This document shows positions 2,221-20,000 of a stretch of DNA of 20,000 bases, in pieces. The DNA lies in IMG/VR virus record IMGVR_UViG_3300032268_000966; one strand, 5' to 3'. The number at the start of each line of letters is the position of its first letter. The stretch's first letter is position 1. Origin of the DNA: an uncultured virus (IMG/VR IMGVR_UViG_3300032268_000966) (Duplodnaviria; Heunggongvirae; Uroviricota; Caudoviricetes). The notes beneath the pieces were generated by a model. The model was not told where the DNA came from. It saw only the letters and a program-made list of their open reading frames with translations, and searched no databases. The translations under genes and the position numbers were made by a program.

Positions 2221-2221
2221 G

Positions 2222-2893: not shown

Positions 2894-2894
2894 A

Positions 2895-3278
2895 TTATTT
2901 ATATTTTACATATTCTTTTACTTCTCTAATTTCAGAATCAGTAAATTTATTAATTTCGTTTTTTAATCTAAACCTTTCGTCATTTGTGAAATAAACTTTT
3001 CTTGCAAAATCGATGAACTCACCCTCAAATCTTTTTTCGGTTTCTAACACTCTTAACCTATCTTCAATATCCCAAAGTTTTGAGTTAATGTCAACTAATT
3101 GATGATATAAAGACTCAATTTCAGGTTGGTCTAAATAACCTGATGATAAATTGTAAAGAAGTTCAAATTCTTTATTTATATATTCTAACTTTTCCTCGTT
3201 AGTGATTTTTGTTTGTTTTACGTGTAAGATGGATAATTTGTCAATTAACTCACCAACACTTACTGGTGATTGAATCAT
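2895..3278 (-). CDS. DUF6165-like protein (small helical protein found near glycosylation genes)
   Basis: PVSVGELIDKLSIL..K, VDINSKLWDIEDRLR, FARKVYFTNDERFRLKNEIN, EVKEY: matches my recollection of the DUF6165 consensus. Confidence 0.75.
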   Translation of the reverse strand: MIQSPVSVGELIDKLSILHVKQTKITNEEKLEYINKEFELLYNLSSGYLDQPEIESLYHQLVDINSKLWDIEDRLRVLETEKRFEGEFIDFARKVYFTNDERFRLKNEINKFTDSEIREVKEYVKYK

Positions 3279-3982
3279 AATATGTATGTTAAGTCTTTGT
3301 CGAACATATGTTCAACTTGATGAAAACTTGGTGGGTTATGTCTTGAATAAACCGTAACATTTTTCAAACCAAGTTTTGAGATTATGTAGAGAATTGATGT
3401 CTCTACGGTATAAATGTGTTTAGCCTTTAATAAAAGTCCAATCCAATCGAATAAATTATCCCAACCAAGATATTCCATCTCGACTGAGTTTTCATATTTT
3501 CCCATATGTGGACATGGTTTTGAATGTGGAGGTGAGCCAAACATTCTGTTAACAAAAACAAATTCTTTATCTTGTACACCATAGTGGTCAATAAGTTTTT
3601 GTTCTCTTTCTAAATTTCTTTCAAACTCGAAATAATCTAACCAGTCAGATGAGTCTATACTAACCATTTTATATTTTGCCTGCATAACAGAAATGTCAGG
3701 GAAATGTCTATCAAAATGTTGTATTGGTAGATAAATTGAATCATCAGCAATTTGTACAGGTTTACTGTACCCTTCCAAATAGATGTTTTTGTGAGGGAAA
3801 TTTTCATTTTCAGTTACAAATTTCAATCCATCAACTTTAATGTAGTTTTTGATAAATTCAAACTGTTGAATTACTGGCCACCAAACTTCATACCCTTTAG
3901 ATATTAAATCTTTGGCAATTTTTTGAGTGAAAAAAATATCTCCAATTCCCGCAGGCTGTCGTATTAAACAAATTTTAGACAT
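3275..3982 (-). CDS. Putative GT-B (GT9-like) glycosyltransferase
   Basis: N-terminal LIRQPAGIGDIFF (GxGD motif of heptosyltransferase-like proteins) and C-terminal FDWIGLLLKAKHIYTVETS resembling the GT9 'A..I.vDS' segment. Confidence 0.55.
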   Translation of the reverse strand: MSKICLIRQPAGIGDIFFTQKIAKDLISKGYEVWWPVIQQFEFIKNYIKVDGLKFVTENENFPHKNIYLEGYSKPVQIADDSIYLPIQHFDRHFPDISVMQAKYKMVSIDSSDWLDYFEFERNLEREQKLIDHYGVQDKEFVFVNRMFGSPPHSKPCPHMGKYENSVEMEYLGWDNLFDWIGLLLKAKHIYTVETSILYIISKLGLKNVTVYSRHNPPSFHQVEHMFDKDLTYIL

Positions 3983-4793
3983 AGTCTTTTAAGTGATTTT
4001 CAAAAATCCAATCGTCAAGAACACTGTATTTTTGTACTCTATCATAATTATCTTTAATAGCCTCTATTTTTGAATTATAAAGCTCTTCAGTTAGTGTTGT
4101 AATATCAAAAGTTCCATCAAAAAATATAATCCCATCTGAGTTAAAATATTCTGTAACTTTTGGAGTACCCATGTAAATTGGTATAGTACCAGTGGCAAAA
4201 CAATCTAATATTTTTTCTGTGAAATAAGTATCATAGGTGTCATTTTCAACACAGAATGAAAAACGGTAATCAACTAATCCAATTTCTTTGTTTGGGATTT
4301 CTTGGATACCTCTACCAAATACATCAATCTTATCTTGGTTTGCCATTGCAAAATCATGTCTGATTTCATGTTGGCGTGTCCATCTTTTATTTGATGTAAT
4401 CATAGATGCCATCTTAGTCTTTGGGTGTATTGCAAAGTCTTTAATGTAGACACCATAAGCGGGAGTCCATTTGAATTTAGGATTTAGTTGGAGTAGTTCA
4501 TCATTGTGAGTCCAAATTTGTTCAAAAGTCTCAAGAACCTCATCTAAATGTTTTTTAATATTATCTACCGCACCACCATCAAATCTTCTTGATTCAATAA
4601 TCCAAAGAAATTTTTTCTTAACTCCCCCATCAACTTTATGGTCTTCAATCCCTTTAAATAAATCATTATCTAAATAAACCGAAATAGGGTTATCGTAACT
4701 ATTAAAACACCACTCAATATGGACTGGTGGTTTATTGGCTGTTGAGCCTTTGTCATGAGAAAAATTTCTCGATAGCATATTTAACTTAACCAT
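3975..4793 (-). CDS. GT10-like (alpha-1,3/1,4-fucosyltransferase-type) glycosyltransferase
   Basis: IDVFGRG, K...L.DYRFSFCVENDTYDTYFTEKILDCFATGTIPIYMG = GT10 signature. Start more likely at 4793 (MVKLNML) or 4778 than at 4826, which would overlap the upstream gene by 46 nt. Confidence 0.8.
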   Translation of the reverse strand: MVKLNMLSRNFSHDKGSTANKPPVHIEWCFNSYDNPISVYLDNDLFKGIEDHKVDGGVKKKFLWIIESRRFDGGAVDNIKKHLDEVLETFEQIWTHNDELLQLNPKFKWTPAYGVYIKDFAIHPKTKMASMITSNKRWTRQHEIRHDFAMANQDKIDVFGRGIQEIPNKEIGLVDYRFSFCVENDTYDTYFTEKILDCFATGTIPIYMGTPKVTEYFNSDGIIFFDGTFDITTLTEELYNSKIEAIKDNYDRVQKYSVLDDWIFENHLKDYV

Positions 4794-5590
4794 CCGTCTT
4801 CGTATTTTACTTCTAATACAATCCAATTAGGTTCGTATATATCTTTATAGTTTCTTGGTCCTCTTGGTCCAAACCAAATTGAAGGAGCCACGATTTTCTT
4901 ATTAGGGTTAGGGTTCAAAAATGTACCCCACCATGAGAATGTAGAATTAACCATGATATGGTTTTTACATAATGACATTAACCACATCTCTCTATAATCA
5001 TCATCTTCAACGTAAGTTACGTTTTCAAACTTAAGATTTTCTTTAACCCAATCTTTGTCATCACTAAAAACAAATACATGAGAATATTCTCCAATTTCTT
5101 TAAGTGCTCTTTCAATATATATTTCATTTGCAATTGGATGAATGTCAGGATTCATAAAACAATCACCTCTACGAATGTGAACTGATAAAGTATTCTCTTG
5201 TTTTAGTTCAGGATGTTTTTCATACATCTCTTGAATAAATTCTTCTGTTGGAGAAAATATTTTTCTTATCTCGTCGTTATAACCAAAAAAGTTTTTGCTG
5301 CTTTGGAAGTACCCGTCAAACACAGTGTCGTGGTCTTTAGCGTAAACATCAATGTATTCCCATGGGCCTTCACTAACTTTTTCAAATCCGTCAATACTCT
5401 CAACAAATTTCATGTTTCTAAAGATATTATTAAGGTAGTTTTCAGTTTGTCTTCCTTGCATTGGTGTCCAAGAACGTGGTACAAAAACAGCCTCTCTGTT
5501 CAATTTCATTGCGTGTGATAATGCGTGTGCTGCTTGGAACATTTGATTTCCCAATCCACCCATTAAATTACATGATATTAAATTACTCAT
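4781..5590 (-). CDS. GT11 alpha-1,2-fucosyltransferase-like protein
   Basis: GGLGNQMFQ, DGYFQS, SVHIRRGD, FVFSDD, LMSLCKNHIMVNSTFSWWG: all GT11 motifs present. Confidence 0.93.
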   Translation of the reverse strand: MSNLISCNLMGGLGNQMFQAAHALSHAMKLNREAVFVPRSWTPMQGRQTENYLNNIFRNMKFVESIDGFEKVSEGPWEYIDVYAKDHDTVFDGYFQSSKNFFGYNDEIRKIFSPTEEFIQEMYEKHPELKQENTLSVHIRRGDCFMNPDIHPIANEIYIERALKEIGEYSHVFVFSDDKDWVKENLKFENVTYVEDDDYREMWLMSLCKNHIMVNSTFSWWGTFLNPNPNKKIVAPSIWFGPRGPRNYKDIYEPNWIVLEVKYEDGWLS

Positions 5591-6315
5591 CTAATTAATT
5601 TTTTTAATTTGGTTTTATTTCTTATTATGTTTGAACATCTTTCTTGTTCTTGGTGACCTCCACCTGTTGCACTTCCGACCTTATGGTCATTGTATGGGGA
5701 ACCCGCGTTATAAACATAATATAGGTTTGGTAAAAATCTATAATTCTCTTTTCCAGCTAATTCTAATAATGAGAATGTATATGCAACATCTGCTGCTGAT
5801 TTGAAATAACTTCCGTCATCGTCTCTCAAATAATCTTGAGGAATTGACTTCCATAAAAACGTTTTCCAAGTTCTTAGATGTGAAAATCTAAATGCGTCTT
5901 TTCTTACAGTATCTGGATTACATTCTGATGAAAACCCTGAATTTCCGTCAGAGTACATAAATGAACCGTTAGTTAACCAAATTGTTTTATCTGAGTAAAC
6001 TTTTCTAATATCACTGACAACTTCATTACTAAGTAAAAAATCATCACCGTCAATTTCAATTACAATATCTTCATTATCAAAAGTTGAAATTAATTCGTCT
6101 AAGTTTTTTAACTTAAACTTTTTTTCTGTATTAATTATAAGTTTAAACCTATCGTCTCCTTTAATTAAATTTTTAACAACCTCAACCGTATTATCAGTTG
6201 ACATGTCGTCAATTAGATAAACTTCAAATTCATTATCTTTTTGGGTTTTTAAAGTCCTAATACAATTTTTAATGTAATTTTCAGCATTCCAAAAACAACA
6301 AACAAATTTTATCAT
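5587..6315 (-). CDS. GT2 glycosyltransferase
   Basis: FWNAENYIKNCI, YLIDDMSTDNT, EIDGDDFL (DxDD), SAADVA. Confidence 0.9.
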   Translation of the reverse strand: MIKFVCCFWNAENYIKNCIRTLKTQKDNEFEVYLIDDMSTDNTVEVVKNLIKGDDRFKLIINTEKKFKLKNLDELISTFDNEDIVIEIDGDDFLLSNEVVSDIRKVYSDKTIWLTNGSFMYSDGNSGFSSECNPDTVRKDAFRFSHLRTWKTFLWKSIPQDYLRDDDGSYFKSAADVAYTFSLLELAGKENYRFLPNLYYVYNAGSPYNDHKVGSATGGGHQEQERCSNIIRNKTKLKKLIR

Positions 6316-7472
6316 TGTAAATTAATAACGTATCCTTCAGGTGTTGTACCTTGTTTATAGAATTTAAGTCTACCATTGTAAGATTCACTTAATGAGTGTA
6401 AGTTTTTAACTACCTCATCAATTTCGATAACATTAACCAAATAACCTTCATCTAATAAATCTATACATAATTTGAATTGTTGGGATTCTTCTAAAATATC
6501 TGTACCTCTTTTATATGTTATGTAATTCATAACAAATGGATTTTCTTTATTAGGGTTTAATGACATGTAATGGTTTTTTAGGAACAACGCGTGTTCTGTA
6601 TTAAAGTCATCCACAGTTAATGGTAAATTTAATTCCATACCTAAATTCTTAGCATAATATCCTAATGCTCGATTATCTCTTGGAAGACAAGGTCCTCCAA
6701 ACCCAAACCCGTATTTCATATATTTTTTACCAACTCTTGTATCTCCACCAATAGCACTTAACACTGTGTCAATTTCTAAGTTTAATCCTGATTTCATTAG
6801 GATATCACCCATCATGTTGGCGTAACTAATTTTAGTTGTTAAAAAACAATTAATTCCAATTTTTGTAATTTCTGCAGCCTTTGGACTCATAATATGAGCG
6901 TTGACAGAAGTTGTTTGTATTTTTTCGTAAATTTTAATTAGAAGATTTCCTAACTCAGGATAATCAGTTCCAATCAAAACAATATCAGATTGTTCAAGAC
7001 CTTTTACAATTTCCCCTTGAGCAATAAACTCTGGATTGTATGCCACTTGAGTATTAAAGACCGCAAGCTTCTTTTGAATTTGTTCGGTGTCACCAGGATT
7101 AGTAGTACACCCAATTATGAATTTTTTATCGTGAATAGGTAAATTTAATTGGGAAACCGTGAAAAAATCATTAGCTACCTCAAAAACTTTGGATGTATCG
7201 TAATTACCATCCACGGTTGATGGAGTAGAGACAAATGTGAATATTACATCACATTGTTTAATTATTTCAATGTTATCTGTAGTTGCACTAAAGTTATGTA
7301 CATCAAATAACATTTTTTGAATCTCAGGTTCATTAGTTAAACAAACTCCTTGATTTAAATTTTGTACATAATCTTCTCTTTTATCAGACACGAGTACATT
7401 GTATCCCGCCTTCTCACATAATAAAGCGAAAGTTAATCCTAATCTTCCTGCCCCAATAATTCCTATTTTCAT
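6312..7472 (-). CDS. ugd: UDP-glucose/GDP-mannose 6-dehydrogenase family protein
   Basis: IGIIGAGRLG Rossmann motif, FVSTPS, YNPEFIAQG, AEITKIGINCFLTTKISYAN, GFGGPCLPRD (catalytic Cys); C-terminal domain short and divergent. Confidence 0.88.
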   Translation of the reverse strand: MKIGIIGAGRLGLTFALLCEKAGYNVLVSDKREDYVQNLNQGVCLTNEPEIQKMLFDVHNFSATTDNIEIIKQCDVIFTFVSTPSTVDGNYDTSKVFEVANDFFTVSQLNLPIHDKKFIIGCTTNPGDTEQIQKKLAVFNTQVAYNPEFIAQGEIVKGLEQSDIVLIGTDYPELGNLLIKIYEKIQTTSVNAHIMSPKAAEITKIGINCFLTTKISYANMMGDILMKSGLNLEIDTVLSAIGGDTRVGKKYMKYGFGFGGPCLPRDNRALGYYAKNLGMELNLPLTVDDFNTEHALFLKNHYMSLNPNKENPFVMNYITYKRGTDILEESQQFKLCIDLLDEGYLVNVIEIDEVVKNLHSLSESYNGRLKFYKQGTTPEGYVINLQ

Positions 7473-8272
7473 ACGATATTATTTTCTTTTAAATCAAAAA
7501 TTGGTATTGAAACCATTTTATGTTTATTTTTTGTGTTGAAGTTTGCGTAAGTTGTAAGTATTGTTTTTTCTTTTTCTGTTAATTCTAATTGTTCTGACCA
7601 TTTATTCATACCATATTCCATAGCCCATTCAAGCTCATCATAAGTTGAACCTATTTGTGTTTCGTCAACTCTGTTGTCTTCCCATAGACCATCTGTTGGT
7701 TCAGCGTTAATTATTTCTTGAGGTACTCCTAATAACTTACCTAACTCTCTAACTTCTGATTTATATAAATCAGCAATAGGGGAAATATCTACTCCACCAT
7801 CACCATACTTAGTATAAAATCCAACACCGAAGTCTTCAACTTTATTTCCTGTACCAATTACAATACCACCAGATGAAGCCGCTATTTGATAAAGAGACAC
7901 CATTCGTAATCTTGATTTTGTATTTGCAAATCCAAGTTCAGAGTTAAACCTTTTATCAAATGCTTTATGAGATTTAAATGATTCAAATACGGGAGATAAA
8001 TCTATATAGTATCCCTCAACATTATCATATTTCGCACTTAAAAGTGAAATTTGTAAATCAGATAACTTTGTATTTTCAGGACTTGAGTTTATTGGCATTC
8101 CAACAACAATGGTCGGTATTCCTGTTTCAGCACATAATGTTGACACTACCGCTGAATCTATTCCACCTGAAACACCTACTACTAAAGTAGATATTCCATT
8201 TTCGTTTACGTAAGACTTAATCCAATCTTGTATTTTTATGGATAAGTTTTCATAGTCAATAATTCTATTCAT
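7469..8272 (-). CDS. nadE: NH3-dependent NAD+ synthetase
   Basis: VGVSGGIDSAV PP-loop, ANTKSRLRM, GTGNKVE, GFYTKYGDGGVDISPIADLYKSEV, PTDGLW, DETQIGSTYDELE, HKM; no glutaminase domain. Confidence 0.95.
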   Translation of the reverse strand: MNRIIDYENLSIKIQDWIKSYVNENGISTLVVGVSGGIDSAVVSTLCAETGIPTIVVGMPINSSPENTKLSDLQISLLSAKYDNVEGYYIDLSPVFESFKSHKAFDKRFNSELGFANTKSRLRMVSLYQIAASSGGIVIGTGNKVEDFGVGFYTKYGDGGVDISPIADLYKSEVRELGKLLGVPQEIINAEPTDGLWEDNRVDETQIGSTYDELEWAMEYGMNKWSEQLELTEKEKTILTTYANFNTKNKHKMVSIPIFDLKENNIV

Positions 8273-9900
8273 TAAAGGATTTTTTGATACTCTTCTTTTA
8301 TTTGTTTTGCGACGTTAGAGGAGAAGTATTTCTCTACGTCTACAGGAGGTTCGAATTTTTCTTTTGATAAAATAAATCCACCTGAATCTACTTTATAAAT
8401 CCAACTTGGTTTTCCGCACATCCATCCTTCGATAGTTGTTCGTCCTAATTGAATTCCTGCAGTTTCTTCACATCTATATATGAAATTTTCTACAGACCAA
8501 GTAGGAGGGAAATATTTTACATGAGGTTCAAATAAAACTTGTTGTAGATAGTTTGATTTGTCTTCTCCCACTAACCAAAGTTCTTTACCCTCCTCTTTTG
8601 TTCTCTCCATTAAATCTAAGATTGTTTCTTTTCTTAGATAATCTATGGTACCAACAAATAATACAGAATTTTCTGTCTTAACTAAAGGTTTTGGTTTAAA
8701 TTTATCATTGTCAATTGGATTATAAATAATGTCAATTTGTTCTTCAGGTATTTCAAATTTATCTACAATATGGTCCTTAATTTCGGGTCTAATTGCAATA
8801 TATTTTTTAATTGATTCATGTTTGATAGGGTCTTCTAATTCTATAACTTCAGAATGAATAGAATAAATTTTATCTATCTCAGGATAAAATTGAATCATTC
8901 TTTCGGCAACAGGTTTATGTTGCATATGAATAATATCAAAGTTAACTTCAGAAACACGATACATTACATTTTCAGTTGATACTTTAAATCCTTCAGGTGT
9001 GTTGAATCCCCATTTACCATCACCAAGTTTAAATCCAGGTGCTGCTTCAAATGGTATACATTTAATCCCTAGTTTTTTTGCCATATCAGTTAATGGCCCA
9101 CCTATTTGGGACATAACAGTAACATCACAGTTTTGTTTAATTAAATTCTTTGCAAGTTCAAAAATATATAATTCAGAACCAGTAAAAGTTCTAAAGAACA
9201 AAGATGATATTAAAACTTTAATTCTTCTTTGTGGGTCGTAGTTAAGTTTAACAGGTAAATTTTTTGCGTATTTTGATTCAAACAATTTTCTATTCTCTTC
9301 CCATTGTTCATTAGTTTGACCAATTGACCTGTGAGTAATTCTAATATTAGTAATAACACCAACTTTAACTCCTTCAATATGGTTTTCAAAACAAAAAGGA
9401 ATATCATAAAAGTGAAACCCTTTAAAGTCTTCGTTAAAATTCTTTTTAATTTTTCTTTTGTCAATTGCAATGAATAGACCGTCAACAACAACTGTTTCTA
9501 TAATTGAGTTACCTAAGGACTCTGAGTATTTTGATTCCCATTTCTTTCCATCACTTTCATGATTAACAATGCCAACCATCTTTCTTCTGTCTTCCCACCA
9601 CATTCCACTACTTGGCATTTGAGTTGTTCCTGCCATACCAAGAATACCAAAATCACTTTTTTCAAAATGTTTTAATAATTTGTTATACCAAGAATTTGTA
9701 TCAAAATATATATCATCATGACAAAACACAACAATGTCAGTCTTTGATTCTGACAAGACTTCATTATAAACTTGGGCAAGAGACTTCTCACCGTTGTTAA
9801 CTTTTTCAATGACCTCAAGTTTTTTAAACCCTGAACTCTTTTTTAGATATTCTGTAAACTCTGGTTTACTCTCTCTTGTTGAGTATGCTATTGTAATCAT
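8272..9900 (-). CDS. Two-domain glycosyltransferase: N-terminal GT-A (GT2-like) plus C-terminal GT-B (GT4-like)
   Basis: N-terminal: SLAQVYN, VVFCHDDIYF, GILGMAG, VVDGLFIA, GFHFYD, ITHRS.G. C-terminal from about aa 227: KVLISS..TGSELYIFELAKNL, IIYNPID, LFVGTID, GRTTIEGWMCGKP. Confidence 0.82.
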   Translation of the reverse strand: MITIAYSTRESKPEFTEYLKKSSGFKKLEVIEKVNNGEKSLAQVYNEVLSESKTDIVVFCHDDIYFDTNSWYNKLLKHFEKSDFGILGMAGTTQMPSSGMWWEDRRKMVGIVNHESDGKKWESKYSESLGNSIIETVVVDGLFIAIDKRKIKKNFNEDFKGFHFYDIPFCFENHIEGVKVGVITNIRITHRSIGQTNEQWEENRKLFESKYAKNLPVKLNYDPQRRIKVLISSLFFRTFTGSELYIFELAKNLIKQNCDVTVMSQIGGPLTDMAKKLGIKCIPFEAAPGFKLGDGKWGFNTPEGFKVSTENVMYRVSEVNFDIIHMQHKPVAERMIQFYPEIDKIYSIHSEVIELEDPIKHESIKKYIAIRPEIKDHIVDKFEIPEEQIDIIYNPIDNDKFKPKPLVKTENSVLFVGTIDYLRKETILDLMERTKEEGKELWLVGEDKSNYLQQVLFEPHVKYFPPTWSVENFIYRCEETAGIQLGRTTIEGWMCGKPSWIYKVDSGGFILSKEKFEPPVDVEKYFSSNVAKQIKEEYQKIL

Positions 9901-10522: not shown

Positions 10523-11223
10523 TATTTTAATTTTAATAGTTTGTTAATTACGTCGATTAAAACTGATACATCCTTTTCACAGTATTCAACAATACCTAAG
10601 ATATCTTTTTTAACCCAAAACGCTTCATGAACTTTATTACCTGTAACTTCCATGTTTTTAGATGATTCAACTCCTAAACAAACACACATTAATTCTAACG
10701 ATGCGATGGAACCATATCCACCGTATTGCCAAAGTTCCTTAGTATCTAAAGCTTTAATTTCCCATGGTTTAGTATCATGACCTGGTAATATTTTCGGAGG
10801 AAGAATACCATTCATCATCATTCTTTTTGCCAACATTGGAATATCAAATCCTTTAACATTGTGACCACATAAAAAGAAGTTTAATTCTCCAACTCGTTTA
10901 AGCAGTTTTTGAACCTCCTCTAATAGTTTCTTTTCATCAGGGTCACTGAAAGATTGCATTTTGGTTTCACCTTTGTCTGTAACAAAGGCAACACTAACAC
11001 AGGCAATTCTTGCAAACTCAGGTACTAATGCCGCTCTATTTACAAACATGTCACCAACAGGTTTATCTGCATCTTCAGGAAATCTTTTTTGAAACCAATC
11101 GTGGTAATTTTTAAATTGGTATGCTAGCTCAGGTCTGTTAGACTCAAGAGATTCCCAATCTGATTGAATACCGACAGTTTCGATATCTAAAAATAAAATC
11201 TTCGTTAAAGGTATGTTTATCAT
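10522..11223 (-). CDS. Stand-alone PolB-like 3'-5' exonuclease (DEDDy, DNA_pol_B_exo2-like)
   Basis: ExoI LFLDIETV, ExoII GHNVKGFDIPML, ExoIII EYCEKDV; no polymerase domain. Confidence 0.88.
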   Translation of the reverse strand: MINIPLTKILFLDIETVGIQSDWESLESNRPELAYQFKNYHDWFQKRFPEDADKPVGDMFVNRAALVPEFARIACVSVAFVTDKGETKMQSFSDPDEKKLLEEVQKLLKRVGELNFFLCGHNVKGFDIPMLAKRMMMNGILPPKILPGHDTKPWEIKALDTKELWQYGGYGSIASLELMCVCLGVESSKNMEVTGNKVHEAFWVKKDILGIVEYCEKDVSVLIDVINKLLKLK

Positions 11224-12434
11224 TATATGATTGATTTATAAAATTCTGCTCTTGTTTTTGTTACAACATTAAGGTCGTACTTGTCCTTTACGGTCTCATA
11301 TAACCTTTCTCCCATATCTTTTGCTAAGTTAGGATTTTTTACCAACTTCTCAATAAATTTTGGCCAATCGGCGTGATTTCTATTTTCATTTACTAACATA
11401 GCATTACCGTCAACAAACTCACCATTTTTCATACAATGTTTTAAATCGATAGTATAAGGACCTAAGTCAGATGCTATTAATGCTTTCTTATAAAATCCAG
11501 CTTCAATAACTTTCAACTGAGATTTCATTCTATTAAACATTGTGTTTTTAATTGGTGATAAGGACACATCAAATTTAGCATAATTTTTTGCATATGATGT
11601 TACTGGTTTAGTCCAAACTCTCAAATATGGTTCGTCAATATCACCAGTATAACTTTCTTGATTATAGTTAATCAAATGTTTTTTATACTCATCGGATACA
11701 ATTGAATAGTTCTGTGTAAAGATTTTTTCATACTGAGCCCAAACAGTTTCATGAGGAAGAATATTACGTTTAGTTTGTTCTCCTGTTTGTGCATTAATTT
11801 CAGTTACACTACCTCTAGTGTCAAATCCACATAATACATATTGAAGTTTATCTTTCAAAGAAAAAATCTTACCAAACCCTTGGTCTAATAATTGAATATC
11901 ATGTAAGTGGGAAGAACCTCCTAACCAACCAATTCTAAGTCTATCAGACTCTAATGTTGGTTCTTTAAATTGAGATTCGTTTGGATTAATTGCGTTAGGA
12001 AATACAACAACATTCTTATTTAATTTACTAATTTCATCAGCAAATAAAGATGTTGTGGTTGTAACATACTTTGCAACTTTTAAGTTCGCAGTAATTTTTT
12101 CATTAATCTTGTGAACTTTAATAATATCGTGGATGGGGTGTTCTTTACCAGGCATCCAATAATCATCAATATCACAAACAGTTATAACTCCTAATGAGTT
12201 TAACATTTGAATAAGACGATGAGCCCTTTCAAAATCGGGTCCGATACTTCTATGGAATGAAACTATTTGATATTGAGTCCAATAGTTAACGTCATCATAC
12301 GGTGGTTCATAAACGATATCGACGTGAAAATCATCAGGATAGAGATTTTGTAAAAAGATGTGCGGGTCTACTGACCTAAACTTACCAACTCCTGTTCTAT
12401 CGGATGGTACAACGAGTACTTTGATTTTTGACAT
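11223..12434 (-). CDS. GT-B (GT4-like) glycosyltransferase
   Basis: TGVGKFRSVDPH, CDIDDYW, VTTTTSLFA, VFPNAI, IGWLGGSSHLHD, FDVSLSPIK..FNRMKSQLKVIEAG, IASDLGPY. Confidence 0.85.
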   Translation of the reverse strand: MSKIKVLVVPSDRTGVGKFRSVDPHIFLQNLYPDDFHVDIVYEPPYDDVNYWTQYQIVSFHRSIGPDFERAHRLIQMLNSLGVITVCDIDDYWMPGKEHPIHDIIKVHKINEKITANLKVAKYVTTTTSLFADEISKLNKNVVVFPNAINPNESQFKEPTLESDRLRIGWLGGSSHLHDIQLLDQGFGKIFSLKDKLQYVLCGFDTRGSVTEINAQTGEQTKRNILPHETVWAQYEKIFTQNYSIVSDEYKKHLINYNQESYTGDIDEPYLRVWTKPVTSYAKNYAKFDVSLSPIKNTMFNRMKSQLKVIEAGFYKKALIASDLGPYTIDLKHCMKNGEFVDGNAMLVNENRNHADWPKFIEKLVKNPNLAKDMGERLYETVKDKYDLNVVTKTRAEFYKSII

Positions 12435-13598: not shown

Positions 13599-13891
13599 TA
13601 AAAATTAGGATAAGTTTTTGATGAATTAAATTTGTTAATTTTGATTTCGTTTTTTCTTTCCATAACGTCGTCAATAGTTCCAGCGTTTACGTTGTAGACA
13701 TCTAAGAAGGTACCTGTACCTCTACCCATAGAATCTCCGTCGGCAACAGCATCTCTGTTTACTGATGAATATTCATTACCTACAGCGTTATAGTCGTTTT
13801 TTGGTATTAATTTAGCTCTTTCCGCTTCAGCATAGGCTGTAAGTGCGTTTGGTTCGTTTTGAGATAAATCAACAATTAGTTCATTTGCCAT
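13598..13891 (-). CDS. Hypothetical phage protein
   Basis: 97-aa ORF with TAATG overlap to the next gene; contains ADGDSMGRGTG. Confidence 0.7.
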   Translation of the reverse strand: MANELIVDLSQNEPNALTAYAEAERAKLIPKNDYNAVGNEYSSVNRDAVADGDSMGRGTGTFLDVYNVNAGTIDDVMERKNEIKINKFNSSKTYPNF

Positions 13892-13893
13892 GA

Positions 13894-14370: not shown

Positions 14371-14371
14371 A

Positions 14372-15239: not shown

Positions 15240-17933
15240 ATGGCATATCAAAATATAAATCAATATAATTTTAGACGATGGGGTATTAAACCTGTCAACG
15301 AAGTCACGGACATTTGTCTCGCGTCAGATGAGAAAGACTACGACCAAGAAGTTATTTTTTCACCATTGTTAATTGGTGAGGATAATGGTAATAGAATGCC
15401 TTTTAAATTTGACTTTAATAGTTCAGGGACTACAAAATGTCAAACAAATTTGTGTACATTTGATGATGATACTATTGTATCTGAAAACTATTGGAATCCG
15501 ACTGATACAGACCCTAATTTTTGTCCCATTGTTACTGAGTTATGTGATGTTGGTTTGACAGGTATTGACAATGGACTTGTTAAAAACATGTCAGGTGAGA
15601 CTATTGAAATCACAACTGGTCTTTACGAAACAGAGTCAGACAGATTTAGTAGATATAAATATGATAGGAGAATGAAAATGCACCCTATCACTGGTTTCAC
15701 AACTTCAGAAAATAGATTGTGGAACGACAACTCTTATACCTATGATATGTATTACGCCACAGATGGTAATCCTGTGGGTTATTTTGCCAGATTAAACGGA
15801 GGGTTTTTTCAAGGTTTTTATAAGTTACCAGGATACGACTATCAGGTGTTCCCTCAAAGAGTATCGTTAGGGTGGACAGCTGAATTTATGTTAAGATACA
15901 GATGGACAGGAGATACTTCTGTCGGACTTAATTCAAGGTATCCTGATAATAAGGGAACCTTTTTCTACATGGGAGCGAGAGCCGAAAACAAATTCTATCA
16001 CTATGCTGATGGTGAACCAAAACAAGATACAGGGTATACAAGAGTGACCTCAGGGTTAACTTGTATGCATACTTGTGGATGTGCAAGTACTGCGAATACT
16101 TCATCTGAATGTCTACAGGTGTATCAACCATCGGGAGGTACGATAACTCATTGTACTTGTGGTTGCCCTTGTGATTGTGAGTCACATGCCAAATATCCTG
16201 AAAAGGACCCGTTATATGATGGTGTGTCAAATGCGTTGTCTTTAAGATTAAGTGGAGATACAGGTAGTCCAAGACTATGTGTTAAGACATATAGAATAAC
16301 AGGAGGGTGTGAACATAGTGGAACTTGTCTTACAGGATTGACTTACCACACTGGAACATCTGTAACCGAATGGTGTTCTACGAGAGGAATATTTGATGAT
16401 TGTAGTGGGACTACTTATCCTAACGTTGAACATTGGGTTCAAATAGATGCCGTATTTCAAAGAAAGGAATGGTTTGATACCTGTGACCTATATGAAAAAG
16501 GAGGACTTGGTTTGTTAGTTGATGATGTATATTTTGCAACATTAGAGAATAGAAGTGTAACATTAGTTGAACCTCCAATAACACATGACCCAGGATATAT
16601 TCCACCTTCAACAGAGGTTGTTACGTTTACTGATATGTGGACCGAAGAACAAAAATATAGATTAGGTACTCTTAAGTTTTATGTTAATGGTAAATTATTT
16701 TTGGTGGCTGAAAATTTCGAGGAAATAATTCCAAGACTTCTTAATGTTGAAAAAGAAAAACAAATTGGAGTTGGATATAATATTTCAGTTGGTGGTGGTA
16801 CTCAAGGTCTTCACGACAACTTAACATTCTCTGCAGGGTGTCCCGCAGAGTTAAGTGGTATTACATATCAACAAGACCCTGAATGTTTAACAGATTATGA
16901 CTTAGAACATACTGAATACTCAGGTCTTACAACTCAAATAAGGTTAGAAGAAATTTTTGGTGGTAGTATGATTGGTGATGTTAGTGCATTTAGAATGTAT
17001 ACAGAACCATTAAACGCTTCTCAAATTAGACATAACTTTAAATTATTAAAGAATAGATATAATTTATTAGACCCTAATTGTCTTAATTGTAGAATTTTTA
17101 TTCCAAACAACGACTTGTTGTATATCTCAGTACCGTGTAATGATTTAGGATATTTGATGGTACCATGTAATGATTTGTTTTCTTCTTTATACCCATGTCC
17201 AACATCAACCCCTACTAACACTCCAACTACCACATCAACACCAACAAATACATCAACCCCTACTAACACTGAAACTCCAACTTCTACGGCTACTGTTGGA
17301 TTAACACCTACTGCAACAGAAACTCAGACACCTACACCAACAGAGACTCCGACTCAAACTCCAACTAACACCGAAACACCAACTAACACACCAAGTGAGA
17401 GTCCTACACAGACTCCAACACAAACCGCAACTCCATCTACAACTGCAACTATTGGATTAACACCAACTCCAACAGAAACTCAAACACCAACTCCAACTGA
17501 AACACCTACTAATACACCAACTAATACGGAAACTCCAACAAACACTCCAAGTGAAACTGCGACAGAAACTCCTACTAATACTCCAACCAATACTCAAACT
17601 CCAACAAACACTGTAACTCCAACTAATACAGAAACCCCAACAAATACACCAACTAACACACCAAGTGAGAGTCCTACACAAACTCCTACACAAACGGTAA
17701 CTCAAACTACAACACCTACAACAACAAGTACTCCAACAACTACACCTACAAATACTACAACTCCAACACCTACACCGACTAGTTCACCAACACCAACTAC
17801 AACATCTACACCGACTAATACACCAACAACAACTCCAACCCCAACATCAACCCAACTATACTTCTTATTATTTGAAGATGATTCAATTGCTACGGCAGAA
17901 AATAACGATGATATTGAAATAGATATTATATAA
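15240..17933 (+). CDS. Large Cys-rich putative virion protein with split LamG/concanavalin-like elements and a mucin-like Thr/Pro stalk
   Basis: 897 aa; [51 protein letters not shown] resemble LamG strands and the terminal helix; about 27 Cys; ~218-aa T/P tract; acidic C-terminal [15 protein letters not shown]. Confidence 0.7.
17100..17189 (+). repeat. Three 30-nt (10-aa) coding repeats
   Basis: [10 protein letters not shown] / [10 protein letters not shown] / [10 protein letters not shown]. Confidence 0.75.
17199..17852 (+). repeat. Thr/Pro-rich coding repeat tract (TPTNT/TPTET/TPTQT)
   Basis: Seen directly; includes an exact 35-bp duplication at 17376-17410 and 17646-17680. Confidence 0.95.
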
Positions 17934-17949
17934 AAAAAAATAGAATAAA

Positions 17950-18456
17950 ATGGCAAATACAAAAATAAGTCAATTACCAACATTTACGGGAAATACTAAT
18001 GGGTCGTTTATTGTTATGAACAATAGTGGTAATACGCAGTCATTTAAGGTGGCTAAAGAAACATTATTTAGTGGATATTCAACAAATGTAGTGTCACCAG
18101 TCTCAGGAAGTTGGACTTTATCAACAGGTGCAAATACTGTTAGTTTCACAGTTACTCCAGGTCAATCATATGTTATGTGGGTGAATGGAAATATTCCAAG
18201 TGGTATTGTTAATTGGAATGCAACAGTAACACTATCAAACACAAATGTACCTGCAATAGGTGTACAATATGGTTGGTATTATCTCGCGGGAAATGCTTTG
18301 GAGTTAACATCAATACCAAGTCAGATAGTCGGAACTGCGGGAAGTATTAGTACATCAGCACCAGCGGGTTCAAATACAAATACCTTTACATTTGGTATAA
18401 CCAATAACAGTGGTACATCTCAAATAGTATATTACGGATATATTAAAATAAGTTAA
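17950..18456 (+). CDS. Putative virion/tail-fibre-associated beta-rich protein
   Basis: N-terminal MANTKISQLP motif typical of phage fibre-associated proteins; S/T/G/N-rich with few charged residues. Confidence 0.65.
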   Translation: MANTKISQLPTFTGNTNGSFIVMNNSGNTQSFKVAKETLFSGYSTNVVSPVSGSWTLSTGANTVSFTVTPGQSYVMWVNGNIPSGIVNWNATVTLSNTNVPAIGVQYGWYYLAGNALELTSIPSQIVGTAGSISTSAPAGSNTNTFTFGITNNSGTSQIVYYGYIKIS

Positions 18457-18478
18457 AATTAAAATACGGACTATAAAA

Positions 18479-19048
18479 ATGTATACAACAGACTGTAACT
18501 ATTTTATTATAACCAACTACAATAATGTCGAACAAGGATATTATAGATGGACTGGTTGTACGGATACAATTAGTGTTTCATCAATTAACCCGTTACAAGT
18601 ACAATATGTTTGTGCTAAGAATTTAATTGTTGAAAGTTATGGAGCACCTCTTACAATATCCTTAGTAGGATTATGCCCTTCAACAACACCAACTCCAACT
18701 ATTACATCAACACCAACTCAAAGTTCTGTAACGCCAACTCCAACCTCAACTTCTCCAACACCAACACCCACAACAACACCAACGGTTACACCAACAACAG
18801 TTTATATGTATAATCTAAGAACAGGTGGTTGGTACCAAAATGTTTGTCAATCTGTTAGTATGACAGCAAATCCTAAAAACGTAACAATCTACACTTCAAA
18901 ACCTTTTGAAATTTTGGAAGTTGGAGATTACGTATATGGTAACCAATCTTTAACTATTCCACCAATAGATGCCAATTTTACAATCTCAAACGGAGGTAGA
19001 TTTATTCAACTTAGCGGTAATCAAATTATTAATGTTGGGGTATGTTAA
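18479..19048 (+). CDS. Putative virion protein: two small Cys-containing beta domains joined by a Thr/Pro linker
   Basis: 189 aa; CPSTTPTPTITSTPTQSSVTPTPTSTSPTPTPTTTPTVTPTT linker at 18677-18799. Confidence 0.7.
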   Translation: MYTTDCNYFIITNYNNVEQGYYRWTGCTDTISVSSINPLQVQYVCAKNLIVESYGAPLTISLVGLCPSTTPTPTITSTPTQSSVTPTPTSTSPTPTPTTTPTVTPTTVYMYNLRTGGWYQNVCQSVSMTANPKNVTIYTSKPFEILEVGDYVYGNQSLTIPPIDANFTISNGGRFIQLSGNQIINVGVC

Positions 19049-19069
19049 AAGATAAAATAAAATTTTTGA

Positions 19070-19077
19070 GTATTTAT
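19070..19077 (+). promoter_or_regulatory. GTATTTAT motif 4 nt upstream of the ATG
   Basis: Identical to the copies at 15223-15230 (+) and 15211-15204 (-). Confidence 0.5.
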
Positions 19078-19081
19078 TAAC

Positions 19082-19585
19082 ATGGCAGATTGTGGTGTAT
19101 CAATATTTAGTGATAATTTAAGCGGATTAACCGCAAATGTTACCTTTCATTCTTGTACTGGTAGTACAATTAGTTTAGGTGAACAAACATTTCCATTTAC
19201 TTATATTACCGATTATTGGTATGGAACTTATGATTGCTATGTTGCAATATATAATTATACTTATACAATTAATGTACCTTGTCCATCACCAACATACGAA
19301 TTAATTCCTACAGGTGAATTATTATATGACATAATTCCTTTGGATAATTTGTCTGCATTAGACATACCTAATGGTGAATTATTGTATGACATAATTCCTT
19401 TGGATAATTTGTCGGCATTAGACATACCTAATGGTGAATTATTGTATGAAACAATTCCTTTGGATAATTTGTCGGCATTGGACATACCTAATGGTGAATT
19501 ATTGTATGACATAATTCCTTTGGATAATTTGTCGGCATTAGACATACCTAATGGTGATTTATTATACGCCATAATTCAAAATTAA
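19082..19585 (+). CDS. Putative virion protein: ~65-aa N-terminal module plus 20-aa tandem repeats
   Basis: 167 aa; N-terminal module shared with 19638..>20000; no Lys or Arg anywhere in the protein. Confidence 0.75.
   Translation: MADCGVSIFSDNLSGLTANVTFHSCTGSTISLGEQTFPFTYITDYWYGTYDCYVAIYNYTYTINVPCPSPTYELIPTGELLYDIIPLDNLSALDIPNGELLYDIIPLDNLSALDIPNGELLYETIPLDNLSALDIPNGELLYDIIPLDNLSALDIPNGDLLYAIIQN
19313..19577 (+). repeat. 60-bp tandem repeat, ~4.4 copies, in frame (GELLYDIIPLDNLSALDIPN)
   Basis: Units begin at 19313, 19373, 19433, 19493 and 19553 (partial); near-identical, no spacers. Confidence 0.97.
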
Positions 19586-19630
19586 ATTTCAATAAATAAA
19601 AATTTCAATAAATCATAATATTTATAAATA
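19584..19630 (+). promoter_or_regulatory. Intergenic 14-bp direct repeat followed by the palindrome TATTTATAAATA
   Basis: AAATTTCAATAAAT at 19584-19597 and 19600-19613; TATTTATAAATA at 19619-19630, 7 nt before the ATG at 19638. Confidence 0.5.
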
Positions 19631-19637
19631 AAAAAAT

Positions 19638-20000
19638 ATGTCAACAATAGAAGGAGTTAGAATCTCAAGTAACAGTTTAATAGGAAAAACATCAAATCCT
19701 ACTGTTTTTAGGCCAGTAACTGGAGGAACAATTAGTTTAGGTACCCAAATAGTTCCATTTAATTATTATTCAGAATATCCATATGGAGAGTACGATTTAT
19801 TCATCACTGAATATCAAACAGAATATACCATAACAATACCTGAACCAGCACCAGCTCAATCGGCGTATACTGAAACTGTTAATTTAACATTTACAGGTTC
19901 TGTTTTATCTAGTTTTTGGGGTTCATATACTACAGGATTTATGCAATCATTAGGGTTTGCACCTGAAGATATTGTATATGCTGAAGGAATTTGTTCTGAT
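19638..20000 (+). CDS. 5' part of a modular protein: shared N-terminal module plus start of a putative LCIB/LCIC-type beta-carbonic anhydrase domain
   Basis: Not in the ORF track; hand translation: MSTIEGVRISSNSLIGKTSNPTVFRPVTGGTISLGTQIVPFNYYSEYPYGEYDLFITEYQTEYTITIPEPAPAQSAYTETVNLTFTGSVLSSFWGSYTTGFMQSLGFAPEDIVYAEGICSD, open to the window edge. Confidence 0.7.
   Translation, partial: MSTIEGVRISSNSLIGKTSNPTVFRPVTGGTISLGTQIVPFNYYSEYPYGEYDLFITEYQTEYTITIPEPAPAQSAYTETVNLTFTGSVLSSFWGSYTTGFMQSLGFAPEDIVYAEGICSD

What the first reader, a model, noticed from the sequence alone, without database searches (positions are those of the whole stretch)
15240..20000. [ST]-G-x-T motif confined to the virion-like proteins: candidate glycosylation sequon
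Seen (hand count): in the ~620-aa non-repeat part of the 897-aa protein, 12 of 18 SG/TG dipeptides are followed by x-T (SGTT, SGET, TGFT, TGDT, TGYT, SGLT, SGGT, SGDT, TGLT, SGTT, SGIT, SGLT; 8 of 9 SG). The four downstream proteins add six more (TGNT, SGNT, TGCT, SGLT, TGST, TGGT), 18 in total. Among roughly 35 SG/TG dipeptides in the minus-strand proteins I found none. The copies are scattered in unrelated contexts and are not a DNA repeat, which points to protein-level selection. Established: the Bacteroidota host O-glycosylation motif is D-[ST]-[AILMTV], which is different. Inference: [ST]GxT is the acceptor sequon of a phage-encoded glycosyltransferase or another modifying enzyme.
Basis: partly seen in the sequence, partly recalled or inferred. 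Interest (0 to 1): 0.85.

Follow-up and report, generated by a model that had tools for sequence, protein, structure and literature searches.

The report
Ser/Thr-Gly-x-Thr tag on phage fibres
A few tail-appendage proteins of this uncultured lake jumbo phage carry the four-residue pattern Ser/Thr-Gly-x-Thr far more often than chance, which looks like a selected tag, perhaps a sugar-attachment site, but no enzyme or sugar has yet been tied to it.

Summary
In residues 1-651 of the 897-aa protein, 12 of 18 [ST]G dipeptides are followed by x-Thr. Composition-preserving shuffles give 0.8 and local shuffles 1.3-1.5, and none of 220,000 shuffles reached 12. S-G-x-T is the top a-b-x-c pattern in an unbiased scan, and codons differ between sites.

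The bias holds across homologues down to 33% identity, with 48 distinct motif columns. It recurs in a second, sequence-unrelated tail-module family. There one clade has SGMT, TGVT and TGYT where its sister clade has PNMT, ELFT and NGFV.

The bias is not general to virion proteins. Capsid, portal and baseplate wedge lack it, as do enzymes.

Outside the clade:
- A 735-kb low-GC huge phage shows the bias.
- Xanthomonas phage XacN1, a coliphage and the T4 fibres do not.

Glycosylation of these appendages is plausible. Glycosyltransferase clusters flank the operon, there are Thr/Pro stalks, and relatives carry a GT60 enzyme. However, no enzyme tracks the motif cleanly. XacN1 has GT60 without the bias, and the coliphage has the same GT-B family without it.

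Verdict: a real, selected short motif. A glycosylation sequon is the leading reading (about 0.4) but is unproven. This scan noted the same motif before on related DNA (e1-6043942).

The parts
15240..17933 (+). Gene for the 897-aa 'family 1' protein. It has a conserved N-terminal 651 residues (ConA/LamG-like jelly roll with a Cys/His-rich insertion), a Thr/Pro stalk and a short acidic tail.
   Evidence: ORF list. No Pfam or PHROG hit. AlphaFold model pLDDT 85, pTM 0.86. VIA-align Z 13-15 to ConA-like jelly rolls, including a cyanopodophage tailspike chain. At least 1968 protein clusters share the N-terminal part and have variable C-termini.
15423..16931 (+). The 12 [ST]-G-x-T sites, at residues 62, 118, 151, 223, 264, 271, 298, 338, 365, 389, 539 and 561. 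Each is 12 nt long, starting at 15423, 15591, 15690, 15906, 16029, 16050, 16131, 16251, 16332, 16404, 16854 and 16920.
   Evidence: The Gly lies in coil at 10 of 12 sites in the model. In 61 distinct close orthologues, 8 sites keep the motif in 59-61 and site 338 in 52. Sites 62 (43/61), 389 (38/61) and 539 (17/61) flip as whole motifs.
17193..17880 (+). Thr/Pro-rich repeat stalk (residues 652 to about 880) with no [ST]G dipeptide. This is the classical kind of O-glycosylated linker.
   Evidence: Translation. The repeat starts at residue 652. GC skew is -0.53 in 17001-18000.
17950..18456 (+). 168-aa protein with the fibre-type N-terminus 'KISQLP', carrying TGNT and SGNT at residues 13 and 26.
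   Evidence: The motif is kept in 17/20 and 14/20 orthologous matches.
18479..19048 (+). 189-aa protein with a Thr/Pro linker, carrying TGCT at residue 25.
   Evidence: TGCT is kept in 61/61 matches. An orthologue is present in 38/41 full loci.
19082..19585 (+). 167-aa protein carrying SGLT and TGST at residues 14 and 26. Its C-terminal half is four tandem copies of a ~19-residue unit.
   Evidence: SG[LQ]T is kept in 53/55 and [ST]GGT/TGST in 55/55 matches, with Ser/Thr exchange at position 1.
19638..20000 (+). Paralogue of the previous gene, running off the window, with TGGT at residue 28.
   Evidence: The motif is kept in 52/52 matches.
11223..12434 (-). 403-aa GT-B glycosyltransferase (phrog_7162). 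It is a core gene of the clade lying 2.8 kb upstream and divergently oriented. It is a candidate modifying enzyme, not shown to be one.
   Evidence: PHROG E = 1e-41. Atlas neighbours are phage Glycos_transf_1 clusters. Present in 41/41 full related loci at a median 81% identity. Present in 5/5 distant genomes at 65-68% identity, 3-5 kb from family 1.
8272..9900 (-). 542-aa two-domain glycosyltransferase (Glyco_tranf_2_5 plus GT4).
   Evidence: Pfam E = 8e-33 and 2e-9. Present in 37/41 loci. The N-terminal domain is present in 5/5 distant genomes.
1567..7472 (-). Variable glycan-building cassette: UDP-glucose dehydrogenase (6312-7472), GT2 (5587-6315), GT11 (4781-5590), GT10 (3975-4826), DUF6165, and two methyltransferases (2222-2893; FkbM type 1567-2220).
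   Evidence: Pfam. Presence in related full loci: UDP-Glc DH 29/41, GT2 28/41, GT11 9/41, GT10 5/41. Genes below about 5240 lie outside the reach of those loci.

Best explanation
[ST]-G-x-T is a short linear motif kept and re-created by selection in loops of a subset of tail-appendage (fibre-like) proteins. It occurs in this clade of ~320-kb low-GC jumbo myophages and in at least one other huge low-GC phage. The most likely role is as the recognition or acceptor site of a trans-acting modifying enzyme. The best candidate is a phage-encoded cytoplasmic O-glycosyltransferase that puts a first sugar on Thr (position 4) or Ser/Thr (position 1), which the variable GT/methyltransferase cassette then extends. 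Shown here: the bias itself, its spread over unrelated proteins and genomes, its turnover, and the linkage to glycosyltransferase genes. Inferred: that the motif is read by an enzyme, that the modification is a sugar, and which enzyme does it.
For: (1) The bias is strong and robust: 12 sites against 0.8-1.5 expected. (2) It is not tied to one fold or family. In the related complete genome G002 a second protein has 12 of 15. This is family 2 (728 aa), with no BLASTP similarity to family 1 and no match above Z 8 in a VIA-align fold search, so its fold is unassigned. In the distant clade member G008, 12 of 339 ORFs reach P <= 5e-3, against a mean of 0.23 and a maximum of 2 in shuffled proteomes. 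Most of these have no G002 homologue. In the 735-kb phage LR756501, which has no family 1 or 2 homologue, 14 of 959 ORFs reach P <= 5e-3 and 8 reach <= 1e-4, against shuffle means of 0.65 and 0. (3) There is turnover. The 29 family-1 homologues show 48 motif columns. [ST]G dipeptides found in only one sequence are followed by x-T in 14 of 47 columns, and those found in 2-3 sequences in 9 of 12, against a Thr fraction of 0.10. (4) Motifs differ as whole units between clades. At aligned positions of family 2 one clade has TGNT, TGVT, SGQT, SGMT, TGVT, TGYT and TGDT where the other has EGNT, GNTT, DGSN, PNMT, ELFT, NGFV and IGDV. Motif counts are 8-15 against 1-8. (5) Position 1 exchanges Ser and Thr freely, x is free between sites, and position 4 is Thr rather than Ser, with no extended logo. 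This is how a sequon behaves. (6) The carriers look like outer tail parts. They have fibre-type N-termini, LamG, SprB/Ig, fn3 and collagen domains. Family 2 is collinear with the baseplate-wedge module in G008. (7) The operon sits between glycosyltransferase genes that are conserved across the clade. (8) Negative controls: T4 gp34-37 give 8 of 55. XacN1 gives 83 of 1061 with no ORF at P <= 1e-3. A coliphage gives 22 of 368 with none at P <= 5e-3.
Against: No modification has been measured, and the phage is uncultured. No enzyme co-varies cleanly with the bias. GT60 is present in XacN1, which has published virion glycoproteins but no bias, and it was not found in LR756501, which has the bias. 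Members of phrog_7162 occur in a coliphage without the bias. The 403-aa GT-B is a clade core gene, so its constant presence says little. In 61 close orthologues the motif residues are only slightly better kept than other Ser/Thr, Gly or Thr residues (P = 0.045, 0.75, 0.07). Within a site x is conserved and often hydrophobic, and many sites sit at a coil-to-strand junction, which also fits a structural cap. The high-motif family-2 sequences form one clade, so that contrast is a single evolutionary event of unknown direction.
Confidence: 0.4

Rival explanations
1. The motif is a lineage-specific structural building block. [ST]-G-x-T would be a favoured loop-to-strand cap, with a Ser/Thr side chain capping a turn, Gly allowing the turn and a beta-branched Thr starting the strand. 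These phages use it again and again in beta-rich appendage proteins, and nothing is attached to it.
For: The Gly lies in coil at 10 of 12 sites in both models, often just before a strand. x is conserved within a site and is often Tyr, Phe, Leu or Ile. Motif residues are not clearly better conserved than other residues in close orthologues. No transferase tracks the bias.
Against: The bias is seen in at least two sequence-unrelated proteins (family 2's fold is unassigned) and in many orphan proteins. Homologues of family 2 with about 55% identity, and so presumably the same fold, carry quite different residues at the same positions, so the fold does not need the motif. The LamG_3 domains on the C-termini of the same proteins show only 77 of 292 against 32 expected, while the N-terminal part reaches 60-67%. 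T4 fibres, XacN1 and the coliphage show nothing. The rest of the G002 proteome shows nothing either: enzymes 3/61, and capsid, portal, terminase, baseplate wedge and adaptor together 2/22.
Confidence: 0.3
2. The motif is read in trans but not for glycosylation. It could be the site of another modification, such as phosphorylation or acylation. It could also be a docking site for an assembly chaperone, or a contact motif for a host surface polymer.
For: It rests on the same evidence of motif-level selection as the best explanation. No transferase has a clean link to the motif. Family 1 has a lectin-like fold.
Against: No kinase or other candidate enzyme was seen in the window. Ten or more docking sites per protein would be unusual. 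Glycosyltransferases are the only enzyme class that consistently flanks the carriers.
Confidence: 0.15
3. The bias is a chance or compositional artefact of Thr-, Ser- and Gly-rich proteins, picked out after the fact.
For: The motif was chosen after looking at the sequence. The proteins are Thr-rich (0.095-0.13).
Against: 0 of 200,000 global and 0 of 60,000 local shuffles reach the observed count. An unbiased scan puts the motif first, beyond the best of 300 shuffles. Thr is enriched only at +3. The result replicates in other families and genomes.
Confidence: 0.01

Closest known systems
Virion O-glycosylation of mycobacteriophages by phage-encoded glycosyltransferases (Freeman et al. 2023). I saw this work only as cited and summarised in a passage of PMC12619734; the paper itself is not held.
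   Same: Phage-encoded transferase genes lie next to structural genes, and a sugar coat on the particle is the proposed result.
   Different: There the glycans sit at the C-termini of the capsid and tail-tube subunits (passage in PMC12619734). Here the motif lies in internal loops of fibre-like proteins, the capsid protein is not enriched (1/6), and no sugar has been measured.
SgtA / BclA3 of Clostridioides difficile: O-GlcNAc on Thr of Gly-Pro-Thr triplets (PMC7157674, passages read).
   Same: The acceptor Thr stands two residues after Gly (G-x-T). The enzyme is cytoplasmic, is encoded beside its substrate, and Ser can replace Thr.
   Different: SgtA is a GT-A domain plus TPR repeats acting on collagen-like repeats. 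The window has no GT-A+TPR protein. The motif here is isolated, needs Ser/Thr before the Gly (12 of 15 G-x-T), and G002's collagen-like fibres are not enriched (12/71 and 7/375).
GT60 (Pfam PF11397) polypeptide alpha-GlcNAc-transferases of protists. The function of this family is recalled, not read here.
   Same: A clear homologue (E = 1e-66) follows the family-1 operon in G002 and in 39 of 41 related loci. Thr/Pro stalks, the usual kind of acceptor, are present.
   Different: It lies outside the window. XacN1 has it without any [ST]GxT bias, and LR756501 has the bias but gave no GT60 match. It is more likely to serve the Thr/Pro stalks.
Xanthomonas jumbo phage XacN1 (PMC5852040, passages read).
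   Same: It is a cultured jumbo myophage with a GT60 homologue (47% identity), a GT9 and NAD synthase, and 'at least two glycoproteins' detected in virions.
   Different: It has no family 1 or 2 and neither of the window's two conserved transferases. It shows no [ST]GxT bias (83/1061).
Chlorovirus capsid N-glycosylation at atypical sequons by virus-encoded enzymes. This is recalled; the reviews appeared only in search listings.
   Same: A virus-encoded, host-independent glycosylation machinery with fucosyl- and methyl-transferases and a non-canonical short sequon.
   Different: The chlorovirus glycans are N-linked to Asn in a eukaryotic virus. Here there is no Asn in the motif and the virus is a tailed phage.
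Ser-Gly-x-Gly xylosylation sites of proteoglycans, and the heptosylation of autotransporters by Aah/TibC. Both are recalled and were not read here.
   Same: A Ser followed by Gly serves as acceptor context. G002 has GT9 (heptosyltransferase-like) domains near family 2, and the window has a UDP-glucose dehydrogenase.
   Different: The enzyme families differ (GT14; iron-containing BAHT). The GT9 protein of G002 is missing from G008 and G010. Nothing links them to the motif.

Membership tests
Phage virion glycosylation system (mycobacteriophage type) | Phage-encoded glycosyltransferase genes adjacent to the genes of the modified structural proteins | tested here: met
   The GT-B gene lies 2.8 kb upstream in the window, is present in 41/41 related full loci, and lies 3-5 kb from family 1 in 5/5 distant genomes. 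GT60 lies downstream in 39/41 loci.
Phage virion glycosylation system (mycobacteriophage type) | Glycan demonstrated on virion proteins | not testable with these tools
   The phage is uncultured and no proteomic data were examined.
Phage virion glycosylation system (mycobacteriophage type) | Acceptor at the C-terminus of capsid and tail-tube subunits | tested here: not met
   The motif sites are internal, at residues 62-561 of 897. The major capsid protein of G002 gives 1 of 6.
GT60 / PF11397 polypeptide GlcNAc-transferase with Thr/Pro acceptors | A protein matching PF11397 above the gathering score | tested here: not met
   None of the 25 window ORFs matches. It is met in relatives: G002 94550-95812 has E = 1e-66, and G007, G008 and G011 match while G010 (89% complete) does not. 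In the window's own genome it would lie beyond base 20000, which I did not see. The nearest locus, L003, is only 97% identical and diverges downstream.
GT60 / PF11397 polypeptide GlcNAc-transferase with Thr/Pro acceptors | [ST]GxT bias travels with the enzyme | tested here: not met
   XacN1 has the enzyme but no bias. LR756501 has the bias but gave no PF11397 match, in a search where the control genomes were also silent.
SgtA-type O-GlcNAc transferase on G-x-T | GT-A catalytic domain fused to TPR repeats | tested here: not met
   No TPR hit in any window ORF. The only small GT-A (5587-6315) is 242 aa and has no TPR.
SgtA-type O-GlcNAc transferase on G-x-T | Acceptor Thr in the third position of Gly-x-Thr | tested here: inconclusive
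   The motif contains G-x-T, but which residue, if any, is modified is unknown. 12 of 15 G-x-T are preceded by Ser/Thr.
   There is 1 instance against 2.2 expected in residues 1-651. Asp precedes 1 of the 12 sites.
Concanavalin A-like / LamG jelly-roll fold (family 1, residues about 40-610) | Structural match to solved jelly-roll lectin-like domains covering a whole domain | tested here: met
   VIA-align Z 15.1 (246 residues, rmsd 7.3) to cyanopodophage Pan3 tailspike 9vyh_q. Z 14.8-13 (rmsd about 3-3.5, 184-238 residues) to neurotoxin Hc N-lobes, AbnA domain 4 and CBM40. 90 chains score Z >= 8. Foldseek alone was weak, best E = 1.2e-3. No Pfam hit for the N-terminal part.
phrog_7162 glycosyltransferases as the motif's enzyme | Bias present wherever the family is present | tested here: not met
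   Genomes with both: the clade, and LR756501 (36% identity, E = 5e-49). Genome with neither: XacN1. But coliphage Schickermooser has two members (E about 1e-150 to the profile, 26% identity to the window's protein) and no bias: 22/368 and 0 ORFs at P <= 5e-3.

The most novel reading that the evidence does not exclude
Huge low-GC phages, probably of Bacteroidota, would run a cytoplasmic O-glycosylation system of their own with a defined four-residue sequon, [ST]-G-x-T. The sequon would be written into exposed loops of folded tail-appendage proteins and gained or lost in blocks as lineages diverge. That would be the first defined O-glycosylation sequon of a bacteriophage, a glycan shield that evolves like the N-glycan shields of animal viruses. 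In family 2 the gain of sites goes with the loss of about ten cysteines, as if sugars replaced disulfide or metal clusters.
Probability: 0.35. Interest if true: 0.85.

Novelty: new variant of a known kind. Interest (0 to 1): 0.7.

Why it matters
Protein glycosylation of phage particles is known from very few cases, and no phage sequon has been defined. A sharp four-residue motif on the outermost parts of abundant lake jumbo phages would give a direct handle. Sites could be predicted from sequence, tested with peptides and recombinant transferases, and searched for in metaproteomes. If the motif marks sugars, it bears on how phages hide from or stick to hosts and grazers. It would also supply a small tag for glyco-engineering. 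If it is purely structural, it is a case of strong lineage-specific convergence on a turn motif, and a warning for sequon hunting by enrichment alone.

Tried and rejected
- **DNA-level repeat:** rejected, because codons differ at all three fixed positions.
- **Giant-virus origin:** PF04451 gave no match in 5 related records, but the control genomes were silent too, so that search is uninformative. PHROGs instead show a T4-like myophage, with portal, major head protein, terminase and baseplate wedge.
- **Family 1 in cultured phages:** no tblastn match in 50,697 phage records.
- **Extended logo:** no position outside the four residues exceeds about 3-fold enrichment.
- **Family 2 identity:** no Pfam or PHROG hit and no PDB sequence hit below E = 0.6. 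The model is only pLDDT 67 and its best fold matches have Z < 8, so the fold is not assigned.
- **The 403-aa GT-B:** no PDB sequence match, and NCBIfam gives only sub-threshold hits.
- **The 1210-aa methyltransferase-GT1-GT9 protein beside family 2 in G002 as the co-varying enzyme:** rejected. It is present in G009 and G007, partial in G003, and absent from G008 and G010, which does not follow motif density.
- **Family-2 motif density against family 1:** G012 has an unenriched family 2 (3/13) but an enriched family 1 (9/14). The two families are therefore not coupled genome by genome.
- **Literature:** five full-text searches and passages of a 2025 review of bacterial O-glycosylation (PMC12645811) showed no [ST]GxT sequon. 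This covers the open-access library only.
- **The 'moraphage' paper (PMC12619734):** it describes aquatic Bacteroidota jumbo phages with four core glycosyltransferase groups. I did not test whether this clade belongs to them.
- **Not run:** Complex prediction, because enzyme-substrate pairs are a poor use of it, and read mapping.

Full report
**What is in the window.**
- Bases 3-15187 carry 20 tightly packed minus-strand genes. They include a two-domain glycosyltransferase (GT2_5 plus GT4), a UDP-glucose dehydrogenase, GT2, GT11 and GT10 transferases, two methyltransferases, NAD synthase, dUTPase and a PolB-type exonuclease. They also include a 403-aa GT-B transferase of phrog_7162.
- From 15240 the plus strand carries an 897-aa protein and four small proteins.
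- The window's own assembly is not held.
- Relatives are IMG/VR contigs of up to 326 kb. One of them, G002 (326,291 bp, CheckV 100%), I fetched whole. It is a T4-like jumbo myophage with portal, major head protein, terminase, baseplate wedge, collagen-like fibres and many sugar-nucleotide genes.
- SprB repeats and weak T9SS sorting-domain hits in its proteins fit a Bacteroidota host, but this was not tested further.

**The observation.**
- The expected number is 0.83, and none of 200,000 shuffles reached 12.
- Shuffling inside blocks of 8-20 residues, which keeps local composition, gives 1.25-1.54, and none of 60,000 reached 12.
- Among all a-b-x-c patterns, S-G-x-T is first (P = 2e-9, beyond the best of 300 shuffled proteins) and T-G-x-T is third.
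- Thr is raised only at +3. Ser at +3 is not raised, occurring 1 time in 18.
- Codons differ between sites.
- The small proteins alone are weak evidence (P = 0.013), and the minus-strand zero alone is not significant (P(0) = 0.15).

**The carrier protein (family 1).**
- The N-terminal 651 residues are conserved in at least 1968 protein clusters, with variable C-termini such as LamG_3 and DUF285. The exhaustive library gives 673 representatives.
- The model is good (pLDDT 85, pTM 0.86). It is a ConA/LamG-like jelly roll with large insertions. It scores Z 13-15 to a cyanopodophage tailspike chain, neurotoxin Hc N-lobes, an arabinanase domain and CBM40. Viral look-alikes include cyanophage S-PM2 virion proteins.
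- A conserved anchor-like lectin domain, a Thr/Pro stalk and a variable tip is the layout of an appendage protein. That reading is inference.

**The bias in relatives.**
- In 29 homologues (33-84% identity) the N-terminal part has 3-13 motifs among 8-24 [ST]G, with P from 4e-2 to 1e-9.
- Five sites are kept in at least 15 homologues: sites 118, 151, 264 and 365, plus column 371, where the window itself has TGTS. Others come and go, giving 48 different motif columns.
- [ST]G dipeptides seen in a single sequence are followed by x-T in 14 of 47 columns, and those in 2-3 sequences in 9 of 12, against Thr at 0.10. Misalignment in gapped regions could inflate these counts.
- In 61 distinct close orthologues, motif residues are only slightly better kept than other Ser/Thr, Gly or Thr (P = 0.045, 0.75, 0.07). 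Two sites flip as whole units: SGIT/DDIV and SGTT/KNTP.
- The sites in the small proteins are kept with Ser/Thr exchange: TGCT 61/61, SG[LQ]T 53/55, [ST]GGT/TGST 55/55.

**Genome-wide, structural against non-structural.** All of this uses my own crude ORF caller (ATG start, at least 60 aa, longest first).
- G002 has 127 motifs in 1277 [ST]G, against Thr at 0.068.
- Four of 376 ORFs reach P <= 5e-3, against a mean of 0.2 and a maximum of 1 in shuffled proteomes.
- The strongest is not the family-1 orthologue (10/21 including its stalk). It is an unrelated 728-aa protein, family 2, with 12 of 15.
- Eighteen annotated enzymes give 3 of 61 (3.1 expected).
- Capsid gives 1/6, portal 1/5, terminase 0/3, baseplate wedge 0/5 and adaptor 0/3. 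The collagen-like fibres give 12/71 and 7/375.
- The bias therefore marks a subset of proteins, not virion proteins as such.

**Family 2.**
- There are 569 viral loci.
- Sequences at 67-100% identity to G002's copy have 8-15 motifs in 14-22 [ST]G. Those at 51-57% have 1-8 in 7-21, and some are unenriched: 2/10, 3/13, 3/16 and 1/7.
- At aligned columns the second group has EGNT, GNTT, DGSN, PNMT, ELFT/VDFT, NGFV, IGDV and PECC. The first group has TGNT, TGVT, SGQT, SGMT, TGVT, TGYT, TGDT and TGTT.
- The fold therefore does not need the motif.
- On a quick maximum-likelihood tree the high-motif rows are one clade (support 99). This is one event, and the root is unknown.
- The low-motif group has 13-23 cysteines (one row has 8) against 5-10 in the high-motif group.
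- The family-2 model is mediocre (pLDDT 67). Its matches are weak (Z < 8) and go mostly to phage tail, neck and fibre-adaptor parts.
- In G008, family 2 is collinear with the baseplate-wedge module.
- Family 1 stays enriched in all distant genomes checked: 12/18, 14/18, 9/15, 7/11, 5/13, 9/14 and 9/16.

**Other genomes.**

| Genome | Motifs / [ST]G | ORFs at P <= 5e-3 | Shuffled proteomes |
|---|---|---|---|
| G008 (321 kb, terminal repeats) | 175/1027 | 12 of 339 (8 at <= 1e-3) | mean 0.23, max 2 |
| T4 gp34/35/36/37 | 0/18, 0/5, 2/5, 6/27 | not computed | not computed |
| XacN1 (cultured, 385 kb) | 83/1061 | 2 of 548; none at <= 1e-3 | mean 0.27 |
| LR756501 (735 kb, GC 0.32) | 653/4474 | 14 of 959 (8 at <= 1e-4) | means 0.65 and 0 |
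| Coliphage Schickermooser | 22/368 | 0 of 246 | mean 0.1 |

- In G008 the enriched ORFs are mostly orphans with fibre-type N-termini, one with LamG_3 and one with SprB repeats. Four of them lie just upstream of GT60.
- In XacN1 the two ORFs at 4.8e-3 are identical terminal-repeat copies with 2 of 2.
- LR756501 has no family 1 or 2 homologue. Its enriched ORFs include a collagen-like tail fibre (58/147), an fn3 minor-tail-like protein (25/46), a protein with a T9SS sorting domain, and orphans with 17/25, 15/21 and 7/8.

**Link to glycosyltransferases.**
- The eight genes upstream of family 1, including the 403-aa GT-B, are present in 41 of 41 related loci with full flanks. The GT2_5/GT4 gene is in 37, and the tailoring genes are variable.
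- The GT-B is 65-68% identical in five distant genomes, where family 1 is only 46-50% identical, and it lies 3-5 kb from family 1.
- Downstream of the operon, G002 has a GT60 homologue (PF11397, E = 1e-66), a GT25 and an HtrL-like gene. GT60 is in 39 of 41 loci. I first met this lead in earlier notes of this scan.
- The window ends before that point. The nearest locus is only 97% identical and diverges downstream, so GT60 in the window's own genome is inferred.
- XacN1 has GT60 (47% identity), and its paper reports at least two virion glycoproteins. It has no bias and neither of the window's two conserved transferases.
- LR756501 has a phrog_7162 homologue (36% identity, E = 5e-49) and the bias, and gave no GT60 match.
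- The coliphage has two phrog_7162 members and no bias.
- GT60 thus does not explain the motif, and phrog_7162 as a whole does not predict it. A subfamily might, but my sample is too small to say.

**Where the sites sit.**
- In both models the Gly is in coil at 10 of 12 sites, against overall coil fractions of 0.59 and 0.58. The sites often come just before a strand. This fits exposed loops and also fits a turn cap.
- I could not compute solvent accessibility.
- The LamG_3 tips of family-1 homologues show a milder bias: 77 of 292 against 32 expected, in related sequences. The bias is therefore not simply a LamG feature.

**Reading.**
- The motif is real, it is selected as a motif, and it is shared by unrelated outer tail proteins of at least two groups of huge low-GC phages. 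That points to something that reads it in trans.
- With transferase clusters on both sides, Thr/Pro stalks and a Thr-specific fourth position, O-glycosylation is the leading candidate (about 0.4).
- A lineage-specific structural cap (about 0.3) and another trans-acting function (about 0.15) remain open.
- Published parallels are G-x-T glycosylation by SgtA (PMC7157674, passages) and mycobacteriophage virion glycans (seen only as cited in PMC12619734).
- My five literature searches found no such sequon in print.
- This scan noted the same motif on related DNA before and reached the same open verdict (e1-6043942).

Noticed in passing
window 16056-16190 (residues 273-317 of the 897-aa protein): A Cys/His-rich stretch (12 Cys and 4 His in about 45 residues, with patterns such as C-x-C and C-x-C-x-C-x-C) sits in a low-confidence insertion of the jelly roll. 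It looks like a metal or disulfide cluster in a protein that is assembled in the cytoplasm.
   Followed up: no
L100-L178 (family 2 loci): Motif count and cysteine count run opposite to each other. The high-motif clade has 5-10 Cys and the low-motif clade 13-23 (one row has 8). Cys-rich segments such as PECC are replaced by TGTT.
   Followed up: partly
window 19300-19580: The 167-aa protein ends in four tandem copies of a ~19-residue unit (IPLDNLSALDIPNGELLYD-like). An orthologue covering at least half of it was found in only 2 of 41 related full loci.
   Followed up: no
window 17001-18000: There is extreme GC skew (-0.53) and AT skew (+0.31) over the Thr/Pro stalk, caused by ACN/CCN codon repeats. 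The stalk length varies widely between homologues (663 to over 1400 aa in total).
   Followed up: no
G002 304520-308152 and 303574-304515 (L098): A 1210-aa fusion of methyltransferase, GT1 and GT9 (heptosyltransferase-like) domains, together with a separate GT9 protein, lies about 9 kb from family 2. The GT9 fold is that of the protein-heptosylating Aah/TibC enzymes (recalled).
   Followed up: partly
G002 314056-316311 (L098:14056-16311): A 751-aa protein with two Hint/intein-type modules (PT-HINT, Intein_splicing) and an AXH-like hit. It is possibly an intein-bearing or polymorphic-toxin-like gene.
   Followed up: no
LR756501 391944-395495 (L252:11944-15495): This collagen-like tail fibre has 58 of its 147 [ST]G followed by x-T. 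Here the motif is woven into the Gly-x-y repeat, unlike the collagen-like fibres of G002 (12/71 and 7/375).
   Followed up: no
window 7469-8272: An NAD synthase gene sits inside the glycan cassette and is present in only 12 of 41 related loci. XacN1 also carries an NAD synthetase near its GT60.
   Followed up: no
G008 55656-64327 (L194-L195): Four consecutive motif-rich genes (6/9, 9/22, 8/16, 13/39) lie directly upstream of GT60. Three of them have no Thr/Pro tract.
   Followed up: partly
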